From the NCBI RefSeq assembly GCF_963853765.1, contig NC_088853.1, positions 26,474,001 to 26,538,000 of the forward strand: a DNA stretch of 64,000 bases, written 5' to 3'. Numbering within the stretch: position 1 is the stretch's first letter; every line of letters starts with the position of its first letter. This DNA is from Magallana gigas (Eukaryota). Shown here in pieces: positions 34,201 to 40,200 of the stretch. Made by a program: the position numbers.

Positions 34201-37200
34201 GCTGATATTATGTTCGTATTATAATATTGAGAGTTAATACTATGAATGCATCTTTGTGTGGAAAATGTAGAATGTGAAAGTAATTTTTTTCATATTAGTG
34301 GAAAATTGATATGTTTTATTTGTTATTTAAAGGGAGAAAGAATTAGCAGTTGTGCCAAAGGGAATGCCCAAAGCAGCATTTCTCACAATGCCAACACTTA
34401 TGAAAGTAGGGTAAGCATCAATTATTTTTGTAGATATGCTTAATTGTATCATTAGAATGTTCCTTTTTGAACTTCTTATATGGGACTTAATTGGGTTATC
34501 GAACATACTAATAATTGTTTCGATGGCAAAAGATATTAATTGATTAATTTACAGCTGTGCTTGAATGTTATCCTGTAAGCTTTGAAAAGCATTACATGTT
34601 ATATGCATCTCGATCTATATACAAATATTATCGGTACACTTTTTTCTTCAGACTGTGAAACTTCTTGAAAGCAGTTCCATTGAGGTGGATAAAGCAAATC
34701 TGAAAAAGGCATCATCCTTGATCAAAAAGCACAATAATCCAGGCTATGCTCTATGCCTCAAGGTGATACCCCTGCTGTTTACAGATGAGGAATTGGCATT
34801 GTCCAGGGGACAGGGTCTCATGGTGACCTGAGGCCTTGTCTTAACAAGGAGAAGGTACAAGTGATGAAAGGTGAGGAAACTATCATTACAGAAATAAGTG
34901 TAGTTTCAGCTTCATAATGTTTTAAGTTTTATTATAAAAAATGATTAAACATTTCAAATGTTATTTCAGACTATGTACAAAGTTGGTGCTCAAGGAATGG
35001 CTTCAGTGTTCCATCACACGCCAAACTAAATGCTGGTGTTACAGAAAGAATTGCGTACAGTAGGAAACTTCTGAATAAGAAGTCAAGTAATTAATGAAAT
35101 GTTGACGTTCACTTTTGATTGTAATTAATTTGGGTCATCATTTAAGAACTCTAAAATGTATTTCAGTTGTCAATTATGTGTGACATATATTTGAATTTAA
35201 ACATTTTACTAATTACTGGTACCTTGCATGATTAACAAATATTTTTCTGGATAGTAAAATATGAAGAAAAAAGTTGCCTGTATGTATTAAACTGTCTTAA
35301 GTAAAAATCTTTCAACAGACATTGCAAAAACTTTCTGTTGAACCGTTATGATGAATTATGTATAGGAATGTACATAAGCATATACAGAGAAATGTAATAG
35401 TATGTAATTTTTTATACTGTTTTTTTTTAAATGTGTAATTCTGTTTTTATTATGCAATAATGTTTCTCTCTTGTTAACTTGTACCATAGGTTTTATATTT
35501 TCATGTACCATCTTGTTGCCCCTTAATTGGTAAATAAATAGATTATTAGTTCATATCAATACAGTTGGACTCTTTTGTGTTAAAATTGGTTCTTATGATT
35601 ATATTTCATTTTTACTCCAATCTAATTTTAGCCATTTTGGTTTTGATTTTATAGCAGGTTTCAATACAGGCGTATTTTAATACAGGCATATTATTTTCAA
35701 TACGTATTATTTTGCCAGGCGTAATTTATTTAAGCAGGATTGCTTAGTCTATATTATTCTGTAATTCTATTATACAGGCGTACAAAATTTCCAGGCGTAT
35801 TTCAAATTTTTCAGGCGTACTCATTTGCATGTTTATGCCAAAAATACGGTAGGGGTACACCACTTGTACACCAGTTTTTCACATTTTACGCCTGTATTTT
35901 GTCTTTCAATGTAACTAAGAATTTAACTAGAATTTAAGATACTTGTACGCCTGGAAAATTTAGAAATTACGTGAGTAAAATTTCGTACGGGTCTTCTTCT
36001 GTATGTGACCACCCTCATCAGTCAGATGTAGAGTTGAATGGTGGATAATCAGATAAAGGATCTGGTTCTGTTGTTGCAGTGATTGAGTTTGTCCTTGAAG
36101 ATGCACATGCAGGTGAATTATCTGACTATGCTAACTATGGCAATAGTTGTTGGATATTGATACATGTATCTGATGAAGATGACTCTGTTTATATCTTCTT
36201 CTGTAGGCGACCACCCTCATCAGCCAGATATAGAGTTTAATGGTGGAGAGGCAGATAAGGGATCCAGCTCTGTTAATGCAGTGATTGAGTCTCTTCTTGA
36301 AGATGCACATGCAGGTGAGATATCTTACAATGCTAACTAGGGCAATAGTTGCTTGAAACTGATATCTGATGAAGATGACTCTGTTTATATCTTCTTCTGT
36401 ATGTGGCCACCCTCATCAATCAAATGTAGAGTTGAATGGTGGAGAGTCAGATAAAGGATTGGGTTTTGTTGATGCAGTGATTGAATCTGTCCTTGAGAAT
36501 GCACATACAGATGAGTTATCTGACTATACTAACAAATTGATATCTGATGAAAATGACTGTTTATATCTTCTTCTGTAGGTGACCACCTTCATGTAAAGTT
36601 TAATGATGGAAAGTCGGATGAAGGATTGTGTTCTGTTGATGCAGTGATTGAGTCTTACTTTGGAGATGCACATGCAGGTGAGTTATCTGACTATACTAAC
36701 TGGCGCAATAGTTGTTTGAAAGTAATATCTGATGAAGATGACTCTGTTTATATCATCTTCTGTAGGTGACCACCCACATCAGTCGGATGTAGAGTTTAAC
36801 GGCGCAAAATCAGATAAAAGATCTGGTTCTGTTGATGCAGTAATTGAGTCTCTCCTTAGAGATGCAAGTGCAGGCGAGATATCTGACTACGCTAACTATG
36901 TCAATAGTTGTTGGAAATTGATATCTGATGAATATGATTGTTTATATCTTCTTCTGTAGGCTACCAACATCATCAGTCAGAAGTAGAGTTTAATGATGGA
37001 GAGTCAGATAAAGGATTGGGTTCTGTTGATGCAGTAATTGAGACTATCCATGAAGATGCACATGCAGGTGAGGTGTCTGACTATGTTAATTAGGACGACA
37101 GTTATTGGAAATTGATATCTGATGAAGATGACTCTGTTTATATCTTCTTCTGTAGGTGACCACCCTCATCAGTCAGATGTAGAGTTTAATGATGGAGAGT

Positions 37201-40200
37201 CAGAGTCTGATATGGATGATTCTGATGAATTTTGGATTGATTCAGATAGTGATCCTGATTACTCATCGAGTAAAAGCGATTCTGATAACGCATCAAGTGA
37301 AAGTGAAAACGATGATAACCTTCCAGATGTTGACAAAAGTGTTTCTAAACAGGGCAATCATCAAATTCTAAAGAGTATTGAAAATGTGAATGCCCGGAAT
37401 GTTTTGAATGGATTCAGCTTGAGAAATCAGTTGCAAATCATAGGACCTCTTGTCCAGGGTTTAAGACAGGATCAGATTTCCAAAGCAAAGGGTCTCTTAT
37501 CATTCAGGCTAAAGTTATGGCAGGAAACATCATTCCAGAAAGTTCACAAATACTTCAAAAAGAAGTTCTTCCAGCGATGAGAAGAGACAGCATTACAGAC
37601 TGTGTTTTGGAGGACCACGTTATTCTGATGCTTGGAGATATATGGCTCAGTAAAAACAAAGATAATAAAAGAAAACGAAAACATTATGCGAGTAACCACA
37701 TGCGACTTGCTGGACGCCTTCTTCTCCTTGTTCGAGAAACATGAAACCTATCTCTTAGTATAGCCAATGTCAGATTTTCTGGTACCAAAATATTTTGTTG
37801 TTTTTGTGTCTTGTGTACTTAAGGCTTGTGATGGTGTTGACTTATTAATTTTTTTAATATAAAATGTCTTAAGGTATTTTTATACATTTTTGACTTTAAA
37901 TGTTTGTTGTTGATTTTGTTGAAAGAAAATGTCTCAGATAGAGTGTGAGTTTTCTATAATTAGGGGTTTTAAGGGGCTAGAAGTTCAATATTTTAATCAT
38001 TTATATCTTAAAAAGGAGAAATATTTTGAAAAGCATTATAGAAGAGAAGATGCTCATTACGAAGTTGTAATAATATTTAACCATCAAAGTTTCCTTAAAT
38101 GGCCCCTATAAGGAGATAAAGGGTCTGCCCCTAAAACAGTCTTTCCCATATATCTTTTCCCATAATGTTCTTTCACGTGAACTAAAGACTTTTCAAGAAC
38201 TCCGAATCAACTTAACCAAGGTTCAAGTTGACCTCAGTGACCTCATGCAGAATTTGAGGAATTTTCTTTTCTTTAAATTTTTAATTATGAGAATATTTTT
38301 TTTTCAGAATAATAATTAGAATGGACAACCATGTAGAATGCTATTTAAAGGGGGAGGAAATGTCAAAGAATAAAGAAATTCACAAACCAAATGAAATGAC
38401 TTCAATAGAAATGTTAAGGGTCAACATATTTACTTGTGATGACGACATGATGGAATTTTACACCGGTTTTCCCAATACTCTATTTTATAGCATTTTGCAA
38501 TGTATTTCGAATTACATCGTTTTTCATGTACGTGACATCTGAGCATTTTATGTGTTCATATAAAGATTTCAAAATTGACTAACTCTGTTTATTTTTTTTA
38601 AATAGTAAATAATACTGTCGTTTGTTGGGGGTATTTTAATGATTCGAACTTTAGTAAGAAAGTGTCTAATAATTTATGCCATCCTATCTGTATTCTCATG
38701 GACCCAGAATGCACCTAACATGAAACCTCCTAGATATCTACTACTCACCCCGAAGTAGAAAAATCCAAAGAGAACTACTAAGTAATCTGTTTAACCATTT
38801 TAACAGAACATGACTACTTTAATTTAAACATTTGACTTTCATTTATTATGTAGTTCTACATGAATAAATCCCAAAATGCACAAAATTTTACTCTAACTCA
38901 TCCTAATACTGAACAGTTAAATACACTATTTAAGCATTTAATTCGAATGTGCAGTCAGTTTTGAATTTTGCATCATACAAATAGCCAAGTTTCATATTTG
39001 GGTGTAATCTAAATTTGAGATATGTATGTCCTATATCAACTACCTGAGGCAATCAGCATGTCACCAGCCCAGAGGACACTTTGTAACATGGTAGGATGTG
39101 TCAAACCAGGGCAGAGAGAAGCATGGATACTGTGTGCTGTCTGTGTGAGATGAAGCCATTTATCATGTGTGCATGTCACAGAGGGGCCTAAAGAGGGACT
39201 TCTTAGCCCAATCTGCATTGCAAGATATGAAGTTATTCGTTCAATTCAGAAAACGTATAAATAACCAGTAACCATGACTTAAAGGAAAAGGTTTAAATGC
39301 GTCTAATACATTTATATTTAAGTAAATATATTTCAACTCGGAGCATTCCAACTAGGATGTGCAGAACCAGGGCAGAAAGAGGCTTGGATACTGTGTACTG
39401 TCTGTGGAAGATGGAGCCGTTTTTCATGTGTGCATGTCACAGAGGCGCCGAAAGAGGGATTTATTAGCACAATCTGTATTACAAGATATGAAGTTATTCA
39501 TCCAATGCAGACAACGTATAACTAACCAGTAACCATGACTTAAAAGAAAAGGTTTCTATGCGTCTAATATATTTATATTTCAGTTAATATATTTCATTTT
39601 ACATATGATTTGTGTATTTAAGTGGTTTTTTTTTATTTTTTCTCTGCAATGCCTCTACTATCACATTGCACACATGGGTTCTCTTCGGGTACTTCGACTT
39701 CTTCCCTTATTAAAGATCCAGTCGCCGCAACATCCTAGCAAACGAGAGATATTAATACAAGTTTTAGAACTTGTTTATAGTACGCTGTAAAGTTTAATCA
39801 AATTCTGAAGGGTCACCAAAGAAAAAAAATATTGTAGATCAGATTTATTCTCTAAGATTATTCCTAAAAGTAATTAATTTTTCATGCATCTGCAAACAAC
39901 GGATGATTAAATGATAGTGACTCCCACAAATTAAGTAGTGATTTATCATATGTTTACATGTATACCCCGTTTCAGAGGTGACGAGGATAAACTATCAGTT
40001 AAAAAAACTGTTGAGAAAAATACGTTGATATCGCACCTGACGAGAATAACATGCGAACCAAGTTACTATCATCATGTAAAATGTATTTTTTACATGTTGC
40101 GAACATTTTCTATAGTTTTAGCTTGTTGGTAAATTAACGTTATTTACTCTTCTTAATTATCGTGGAATTCTATCTGACTGTGATGTGATAGAATGTAAAT

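What the first reader, a model, noticed from the sequence alone, without database searches (positions are those of the whole stretch)
35990..37205. Tandem array of 7 symmetric exon+intron cassettes with individually switched-off splice sites
What looks like a 190-bp minisatellite is a repeated cassette: acceptor, 108-nt phase-1 exon, donor and short intron. Units 2, 4 and 6 keep AG/GT and an open frame; unit 4 has a clean 9-nt in-frame deletion. Unit 5 has a GC donor. Unit 1 has lost its AG and gained a TAA, and unit 3 has lost both AG and GT. The pattern suggests selection on frame, with dead units being skipped, giving a variable-length acidic 36-aa repeat domain built by exon duplication.
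Basis: partly seen in the sequence, partly recalled or inferred. Interest (0 to 1): 0.68.

Follow-up and report, generated by a model that had tools for sequence, protein, structure and literature searches.

The report
Dead oyster gene copy with repeated exons
The 196-base repeat is a run of small exon-plus-intron units that encodes an acidic repeat domain in an uncharacterised oyster gene family, but the copy in this window is a broken gene remnant, so its damaged splice sites look like decay, not regulation.

Summary
There are six full cassettes: a 108-nt (once 99-nt) phase-1/phase-1 exon plus a 68-94-nt intron. A seventh acceptor opens a longer exon.

The cassette reading is supported. Two annotated Magallana gigas proteins (P0001, P0002) carry 12 and 14 seamless copies of this 36-aa unit, about 90% identical downstream. 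These are predicted models; I saw no transcript.

The "dead units are skipped under selection" reading is not supported for this locus. The copy lacks about 155 codons through an out-of-frame deletion. It has an in-frame TGA and a second frame change. Homology ends at 37841, about 40% into the post-repeat part of the longest model. No first exon lies within 36 kb upstream. It is a pseudogene fragment.

Among its units, exons are no better kept than the 5' intron parts (48 of 108 against 23 of 48 variable columns; omega about 0.75, p = 0.21). Only the last 40 intron bases are well kept (4 of 40).

The parent family is very large (4461 representatives), has no Pfam model, and looks tyrosine-recombinase-like.

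Ordinary kind, low-to-moderate interest.

The parts
35993..36004 (+). Remnant of the pyrimidine tract and acceptor of unit 1; ends TAT instead of TAG. Homology to the inter-unit introns starts here.
36005..36112 (+). Unit 1 exon-like part, 108 nt, phase 1-1, with TAA at 36046-36048.
36113..36206 (+). Intron-like spacer 1, 94 nt, GT...AG, with a 6-nt insertion.
36207..36314 (+). Unit 2 exon-like part, 108 nt, open, AG/GT.
36315..36402 (+). Spacer 2, 88 nt; starts GT and ends TAT, so the acceptor of unit 3 is lost.
36403..36510 (+). Unit 3 exon-like part, 108 nt, open frame, both splice dinucleotides lost.
36511..36578 (+). Spacer 3, 68 nt; starts AT; carries an 18-nt and a 2-nt deletion.
36579..36677 (+). 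Unit 4 exon-like part, 99 nt (9-nt in-frame deletion), AG/GT.
36678..36765 (+). Spacer 4, 88 nt, GT...AG.
36766..36873 (+). Unit 5 exon-like part, 108 nt, open, AG acceptor.
36874..36959 (+). Spacer 5, 86 nt; GC donor; 2-nt deletion.
36960..37067 (+). Unit 6 exon-like part, 108 nt, open, AG/GT.
37068..37155 (+). Spacer 6, 88 nt, GT...AG.
37156..37391 (+). Start of the large downstream exon. The first 48 nt match the unit; an acidic Ser/Asp-rich stretch follows. Positions 37212-37391 align with P0003 residues 1-60.
37391..37744 (+). Continuation in another frame after loss of about 155 codons (P0003 residues 61-215). Aligns with P0003 residues 216-333. TGA at 37741-37743 where relatives have Thr.
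37740..37841 (+). Last homologous piece after a second frame change near 37760-37767 (P0003 residues 330-363). Homology to the family ends at 37841.

Best explanation
The array is the repeat-encoding part of a decayed, truncated copy (pseudogene fragment) of an uncharacterised oyster gene.

In intact relatives, each 108-nt exon is bounded by AG and GT in phase 1. Splicing therefore adds one 36-aa acidic unit with the conserved core VDAVIES. The array grew by tandem duplication of the whole exon-plus-intron cassette. These steps are inferred from predicted protein models.

In those relatives the array sits upstream of an acidic Ser/Asp linker, two zinc-finger-like motifs, a tyrosine-recombinase-like module and a Myb-like tail.

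In this window the copy has lost its downstream reading frame and the whole recombinase-like part. The lost AG and GT dinucleotides, the GC donor and the TAA are therefore best read as neutral decay of a dead copy. They are not units switched off one by one in a working gene.
For: Shown:
- The cassette anatomy and phases.
- Only one frame is open.
- The translated downstream exon is 90-91% identical to M. gigas proteins P0001 and P0002.
- Those proteins carry 12 and 14 full units of 36, 37 or 45 aa joined G-DHPHQ...HA-G. That is what phase-1 splicing of these exons would give. A Saccostrea cucullata model (P0005) shows the same.

Lesions in this copy:
- P0003 residues 61-215 are missing, with a frame change at about 37391.
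- There is a TGA at 37741-37743.
- A second frame change lies near 37760-37767.
- Homology ends at 37841.
- tblastn found no N-terminal exon and none of the remaining residues. Parts of P0001 and P0002 were searched at E<=5. 150 family proteins were searched at E<=1e-4. The only hits were at 37000-37999 (+) and a different fragment at 11000-12500 (-).

Decay signals:
- Splice dinucleotides are changed in 4 of 26 site-copies, against 65 of 639 for exon positions.
- Splice-site G is kept in 22 of 22 sites readable from other copies' ORFs, against 10 of 13 here (Fisher p = 0.044).
- u1 and u3 are not more diverged than the other units.
- P0012 has an intact u1.
Against: - No transcript data could be consulted, so transcription of this locus is not excluded.
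- A first exon more than 36 kb upstream is not excluded.
- Splice dinucleotides are hit far more often than the neighbouring 38-nt block: 4 of 26 against 4 of 224, P = 0.001, a post hoc test. Uniform decay after one moment of gene death does not predict this.
- The intact relatives are predicted models, not proven transcripts.
- Among 11 short database hits, 10 were unspliced genomic ORFs and none was a spliced transcript fragment.
Confidence: 0.8

Rival explanations
1. One reading: a working gene in which frame is under selection and units with dead splice sites are skipped, giving a variable-length acidic domain from this locus.
For: - The exons are symmetric, so any subset stays in frame.
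- The only exon indel is in frame (9 nt), against four indels of 6, 18, 2 and 2 nt in the spacers.
- 5 of 6 exons are open.
Against: - The downstream frame is broken three times and about 60% of the post-repeat part of the protein is absent.
- No start exon was found in 36 kb upstream.
- Omega among units is about 0.75, not different from 1 (p = 0.21).
- Exon columns vary as much as 5' intron columns: 48 of 108 against 23 of 48, p = 0.73.
Confidence: 0.06
2. Some unit lesions arose while the gene was still alive. Loss of AG or GT silently removed a redundant unit, which became part of a longer intron, and the whole copy died later.
For: - Splice dinucleotides are changed 4 of 26 times, while the adjacent 38-nt block is changed 4 of 224 times (P = 0.001).
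- Units 1 and 3 share the same G-to-T change at the acceptor and are the closest pair of units (exon p = 0.130, intron p = 0.074).
Against: - P0012, the nearest other copy of unit 1, keeps Gly at the acceptor codon and has no stop.
- Units 1 and 3 are not more diverged from the consensus than the others: 0.056 and 0.093 against 0.10-0.14.
- The numbers are small and the test is post hoc.
Confidence: 0.15
3. A non-coding minisatellite whose open frames and AG/GT dinucleotides are chance.
For: Tandem head-to-tail array with 79% matches.
Against: - Each unit matches the repeat of the annotated proteins at 68-82% identity.
- There is one open frame against 2-6 stops in each of the others.
- The array is continuous with a homologous downstream exon.
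Confidence: 0.01
4. Each unit encodes its own small peptide (MKMTLFISSSVG...HAGEISDYAN, about 55 aa) and is not spliced.
For: - The exon frame stays open through the last 39 nt of the spacer and holds an ATG.
- ORF callers report such peptides from other copies (P0006-P0011 and P0015).
Against: - 2 of 6 spacers carry a 2-nt deletion between that ATG and the exon.
- Thirteen open codons are expected by chance about a third of the time, using the stop frequency.
- Three annotated proteins read the units as spliced.
Confidence: 0.01

Closest known systems
Magallana gigas uncharacterised proteins A0A8W8MSU3 (P0001, 1304 aa) and an NCBI 'uncharacterized protein' (P0002, 1421 aa)
   Same: They carry the same 36-aa unit, the same acidic linker and the same following sequence. 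Identity is 90-92% where the window copy is preserved.
   Different: They have 12 and 14 full units and a complete downstream protein. The window copy has 6 units, of which 3 keep both AG and GT, and it is truncated and out of frame.
Tandem exon duplication of symmetric exons that encode disordered or repetitive protein regions
   Same: The exons share one phase and are multiplied in tandem, so each added unit extends a repetitive acidic region without breaking the frame. PMC3632108 (abstract and passages read) says symmetric exons that encode disordered regions often arise by internal tandem duplication. PMC9013439 (abstract and introduction read) says about 10% of animal genes hold tandemly duplicated exons. 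The titin PEVK exon array is a recalled example; PMC3632108 mentions titin's PPAK motif only in passing.
   Different: The cassettes here are very short and uniform (about 196 nt with the intron). They sit on a recombinase-like protein. Differential inclusion of units is not shown.
Crypton-type tyrosine recombinases and genes derived from them (PMC3212892, passages read)
   Same: The parent family keeps conserved Arg, Lys, Arg, His and Tyr in the expected order. One member has the HxxRH box and matches a phage integrase profile.
   Different: - None of the 25 proteins scanned matched DUF3504, DUF3435 or Phage_integrase. The paper says animal Cryptons match DUF3504 and lack a C-terminal domain.
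- This family has a Myb-like tail. That is an Atlas lead only, score 0.93.
- The window copy holds none of this module.
Coding minisatellites (VNTRs inside one exon, as in mucins; recalled)
   Same: A tandem array that sets the length of a repetitive protein domain.
   Different: Here the repeated DNA unit contains an intron, and 196 nt is not a multiple of three. The frame therefore depends on splicing.

Membership tests
Tandem array of symmetric cassette exons | The repeated DNA unit contains an exon and its intron | tested here: met
   Six units align over exon and spacer.
Tandem array of symmetric cassette exons | Exon length is a multiple of three, with the same phase at both ends | tested here: met
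   Exons are 108 nt (x5) and 99 nt (x1), all phase 1-1.
Tandem array of symmetric cassette exons | Canonical splice signals at each unit | tested here: inconclusive
   AG and GT are both kept in 3 of 6 units. One unit has AG with a GC donor. Two units lack AG, and one of those also lacks GT.
Tandem array of symmetric cassette exons | The spliced product is seen in transcripts | not testable with these tools
   Only predicted proteins P0001, P0002 and P0005 show seamless units. Of 11 short hits, 10 were unspliced genomic ORFs.
Pseudogene (non-functional gene copy) | Clear homology to an intact gene | tested here: met
Pseudogene (non-functional gene copy) | Disabling lesions or truncation | tested here: met
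   An out-of-frame loss of about 155 codons, a TGA, a second frame change, and loss of all sequence beyond P0003 residue 363.
Pseudogene (non-functional gene copy) | No productive transcript | not testable with these tools
   No read data were on hand.
Tyrosine recombinase superfamily (parent family, not this window copy) | Catalytic residues R, (K), H, R, (H/W), Y in order | tested here: inconclusive
   In 23 aligned members, R296, K343, R417 and H443 are invariant and Y452 is kept in at least 90%. The first His is T or S in the consensus and is present in P0061. The expected pattern is partly recalled; the tetrad R-H-R-Y is from PMC3212892.
Tyrosine recombinase superfamily (parent family, not this window copy) | Match to a curated recombinase model or a solved structure | tested here: inconclusive
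   - Pfam: 0 of 25 proteins.
- PDB sequences: no relevant hit.
- PHROGs integrase: 1 of 23 members, E = 2.8e-5.
- NCBIfam recombinase models: 2 single-member hits, E = 8e-4 and 0.007.
- hhalign against lambda Int and P1 Cre: probability below 1%.
- The fold test could not be run.
Crypton (animal group) / DUF3504 | Match to DUF3504 | tested here: not met
   0 of 25 proteins at E<=0.01-0.1.
Satellite or minisatellite DNA | Non-coding tandem repeat | tested here: not met
   The units are homologous to a protein repeat. A term search of the main text of the oyster satellite catalogue PMC8268682 found no mention of 194 or 196, of a 195-bp monomer, or of exons. Its supplements were closed.

The most novel reading that the evidence does not exclude
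In the live members of this very large family, which has no Pfam model, the N-terminal acidic domain may be a splice-addressable array. Self-contained phase-1 cassettes would be born by unequal crossing-over and would die silently by loss of AG or GT. Unit number would then differ between copies: 6, 12 and 14 are seen here.

On this reading, the most constrained part of the cassette is the 40-nt stretch from branch point to acceptor, not the peptide. The window copy would be a fossil of that process.
Probability: 0.15. Interest if true: 0.5.

Novelty: new member of a known kind. Interest (0 to 1): 0.3.

Why it matters
It matters little for this locus, which is a dead fragment.

For annotation, it shows that a 196-nt 'minisatellite' in oyster DNA is really exon-plus-intron cassettes of a protein repeat. 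Repeat maskers or satellite catalogues could mislabel such arrays.

It also points to a very large family of recombinase-like proteins with no Pfam model. The family has 4461 representatives at E<=0.001. Its members carry different N-terminal acidic tandem repeats. That family may deserve a description of its own.

Tried and rejected
- **RNA structure as the reason for the conserved 40-nt block.** RNAalifold found 1 covarying pair among 44, and the single-unit fold has z = +1.9 (197 of 200 shuffles fold at least as well). Rejected.
- **Known RNA families.** There was no Rfam match in 34500-39000 at E<=0.1.
- **A two-unit higher-order repeat that would explain why odd units are damaged.** Mean distances are 0.170 odd-odd, 0.183 even-even and 0.185 odd-even, worked out from the pair values. 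No signal.
- **Terminal inverted repeats around the fragment, as a sign of transposon capture.** None was found in 33500-40500.
- **Other copies of the 40-nt block in the window.** There are 4 matches, all inside the array.
- **Pfam on the window ORFs and on P0001 and P0002.** Nothing relevant.
- **PDB sequence searches.** Nothing relevant.
- **hhalign of the family profile against lambda Int and P1 Cre.** No match.
- **Positional orthology between window units and the units of P0001 and P0002.** None is clear; best identities are 68-82%.
- **Search for spliced transcript fragments.** None was found among 11 short hits.
- **Satellite catalogue paper.** A term search of its main text found no 196-bp monomer.
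- **Literature searches for this repeat or family.** Nothing specific turned up.
- **Structure prediction.** It was not accepted on three tries.
- **Cluster look-up.** It could not be made.
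Full report
**1. The observation**

The window is AT-rich eukaryotic DNA (GC 0.29-0.37) with no N. Its best protein matches are from the Pacific oyster Magallana gigas. It is not human. The species itself was not determined.

Tandem Repeats Finder reports an array at 35992-37204 with period 196, 6.3 copies, 79% matches and score 1455.

I cut the array at the pyrimidine tract plus TA[G/T] and aligned the pieces. This gives six complete cassettes and a seventh acceptor.

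- Exon-like parts: 36005-36112, 36207-36314, 36403-36510, 36579-36677 (99 nt), 36766-36873 and 36960-37067. All others are 108 nt.
- Spacers: 94, 88, 68, 88, 86 and 88 nt.
- Each exon starts with two bases that complete a codon and ends with one spare base. All are phase 1 at both ends, so any subset would stay in frame.

- u1 has AT for AG, and TAA at 36046-36048.
- u3 has AT for AG and AT for GT.
- u5 has a GC donor.
- u4 has a 9-nt in-frame deletion.
- u2, u4 and u6 keep AG/GT and an open frame.

The coding frame has no stop in 5 of 6 exons. The other two frames have 2-6 stops each.

**2. What the units encode**

Each was translated and compared on its own. The only window sequence sent to a protein search was the single downstream exon (37158-37577).

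That exon is 90-91% identical to two M. gigas proteins, A0A8W8MSU3 (P0001, 1304 aa) and an NCBI 'uncharacterized protein' (P0002, 1421 aa).

Both proteins carry, just before the matching part, 12 and 14 full units of 36, 37 or 45 residues. The units have the form DHPHQSDVEFNDGESDKGLGSVDAVIESLLEDAHA-G and are joined without a gap. This is what phase-1 splicing of the window's exons would produce: the split codon G|GT gives the Gly between units.

The window's six units are 68-82% identical to their best-matching units in P0002. A short Saccostrea cucullata model (P0005) has the same units, also seamless.

These are predicted proteins. I saw no transcript. Among 11 shorter database hits, 10 were ORFs read straight through genomic exon and intron flanks, and none was a spliced fragment. 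A near-length search found only P0001 and P0002 with this repeat.

**3. The state of the copy in the window**

tblastn of P0001, P0002 and P0003 against the window gave the following.

| Window segment | Frame | P0003 residues | Note |
|---|---|---|---|
| 37212-37391 | 3 | 1-60 | |
| (absent) | | 61-215 | reading frame changes at about 37391 |
| 37391-37744 | 2 | 216-333 | TGA at 37741-37743 where relatives have Thr |
| 37740-37841 | 3 | 330-363 | second frame change near 37760-37767; homology ends at 37841 |

- No N-terminal exon (MEIWKAKGE...) was found anywhere in the window. Neither was any of the deleted middle or of the remaining residues (about 60% of the post-repeat part of P0001). The search used E<=5 and word size 2.
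- 150 family proteins at E<=1e-4 hit only 37000-37999 (+) and a different fragment at 11000-12500 (-).

The copy is therefore a truncated, out-of-frame remnant. A first exon more than 36 kb upstream cannot be excluded.

**4. Selection among the units**

| Measure | Result |
|---|---|
| Mean pairwise difference | 0.182 in exons, 0.124 in spacers |
| Diversity by codon position (1, 2, 3) | 0.204, 0.137, 0.204 |
| Pooled dN/dS | 0.74 |
| Distinct changes against the unit consensus | 15 synonymous, 38 non-synonymous; omega about 0.75, not below 1 (p = 0.21) |

The low spacer value comes from its last 40 nt, which run from a CTGAT branch-point-like site to the acceptor. Only 4 of 40 columns vary there. 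In the rest of the spacer 23 of 48 vary, and in the exon 48 of 108.

- Last 40 nt against exon: p = 7e-5.
- Rest of spacer against exon: p = 0.73.

Indels favour the frame only weakly. There is one in the exons (9 nt) against four in the spacers (6, 18, 2 and 2 nt).

The exons are not better conserved in sequence than the 5' part of the introns. They do have fewer indels, and their one indel is in frame.

Inside the exon, three stretches are the best-kept 12-column bins (0.08-0.11 against 0.18 overall):

- the bases encoding VDAVIES;
- the VEFN bin (columns 25-36);
- the last 12 bases before the donor.

The VIES motif recurs in a distant relative: P0019 is 27% identical to P0002 over the whole length and has 52-aa repeats with (A/V)VIES.

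**5. Are the splice lesions decay or switches?**

Departures from the unit consensus per site-copy:

| Region | Changed site-copies | Rate |
|---|---|---|
| Exons | 65 of 639 | 0.10 |
| 5' spacer | 28 of 264 | 0.11 |
| 3' block without AG | 4 of 224 | 0.018 |
| Splice dinucleotides | 4 of 26 | 0.15 |

The splice sites are thus not protected in this copy.

In ORFs of other copies, the splice-site G can be read from the codons V-G, C-R and A-G-E. It is kept in 22 of 22 sites, against 10 of 13 here (p = 0.044).

P0012 is 91% identical to 35977-36237, including the sequence upstream of unit 1. It has Glu where this copy has TAA, and V-G where this copy has V-C.

Units 1 and 3 are not more diverged than the others.

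All this fits recent decay of a dead copy. One result does not fit neatly: the splice sites are hit much more often than the neighbouring 38 nt (P = 0.001, post hoc). This leaves some room for unit-wise inactivation before the copy died. A gene-conversion explanation for the conserved block is also possible.

An RNA structure does not explain the block.

**6. The parent family**

A search with P0001 residues 715-1304 found 4461 representatives at E<=0.001 and 629 at E<=1e-30.

In an alignment of 23 members, N293, R296, E299, E328, G342, K343, P349, R417, G442 and H443 are invariant. Y452 is kept in at least 90%. The surrounding motifs are NRRRxGE, RGKxGRxVPV, LRKYxAT and HLGHxxxVHxxxYR. These resemble tyrosine-recombinase boxes; that pattern is partly recalled, and the tetrad R-H-R-Y is from PMC3212892 (passages read).

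Support from curated models is weak:

- Pfam: 0 of 25 proteins.
- PDB: nothing relevant.
- PHROGs integrase: 1 of 23 members (P0061, E = 2.8e-5). The match ends at a canonical HQMRH box.
- NCBIfam recombinase models: two single-member hits, E = 8e-4 and 0.007.
- hhalign against lambda Int and P1 Cre: no match.
- Atlas leads only: DUF3435 at 0.86 and Myb at 0.93.

The family does not match DUF3504, which animal Cryptons do according to PMC3212892. I therefore call it recombinase-like and do not file it as a Crypton. The fold test could not be run.

Other members carry quite different N-terminal acidic tandem repeats: units of about 10, 21, 40 and 165 aa in P0017, P0041, P0097 and P0042. A variable acidic repeat array is therefore a family trait.

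**7. Comparison with what is known**

Tandem duplication of symmetric exons that encode disordered, repetitive regions is a described route of gene growth. I read the abstract and passages of PMC3632108, and the abstract and introduction of PMC9013439.

This array is a compact example on an uncharacterised protein family, and the copy in the window is dead. I found no description of this repeat or family in three literature searches. Those searches were not exhaustive, and paper supplements were closed.

**8. What stayed unchecked**

- Transcript evidence.
- The DNA of the intact loci.
- Accession numbers of the hits (could not be made).
- The fold of the family core.

**9. Verdict**

- The cassette reading is supported by homology.
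- The 'regulated skipping under selection' reading is not supported for this locus.
- This is a new member of a known kind. Interest is 0.3.

Noticed in passing
window 11415-12430 (-): A second dead fragment of the same family. It is closest to P0019 and has in-frame stops. Its 52-aa repeat appears to be split into two small exons with short introns.
   Followed up: partly
window 51821-52512 (+): A 54-nt tandem repeat, about 13 copies, encoding an 18-aa acidic unit (IIQGLPEEDVVEESQEEE) in an interrupted ORF. No family-core homology lies next to it.
   Followed up: no
window 35640-35965: A cluster of CAGGCGTA motifs, several direct and two inverted, directly upstream of unit 1. It could be a transposon end or a regulatory module.
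   Followed up: no
window 36167-36206 and the matching 40 nt of each spacer: The branch-point-to-acceptor block is the best-conserved part of the cassette (4 of 40 variable columns). Its translation recurs in other copies' ORFs. The cause is unexplained.
   Followed up: partly
window 9304-10149 (-): A 281-aa ORF with a weak retrotransposon gag match (Pfam Retrotrans_gag, E = 1.7e-4, below the cut-off).
   Followed up: no
window 23811-24341 (-): A 176-aa ORF with a weak Phage_integrase match (E = 0.037). It may be another recombinase-type element fragment.
   Followed up: no
window 39092-39596: A 261-nt unit repeated 1.9 times at 88% identity.
   Followed up: no
window 61060-61471: Several arrays of a 21-nt tandem repeat, with a 62-nt higher period.
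   Followed up: no
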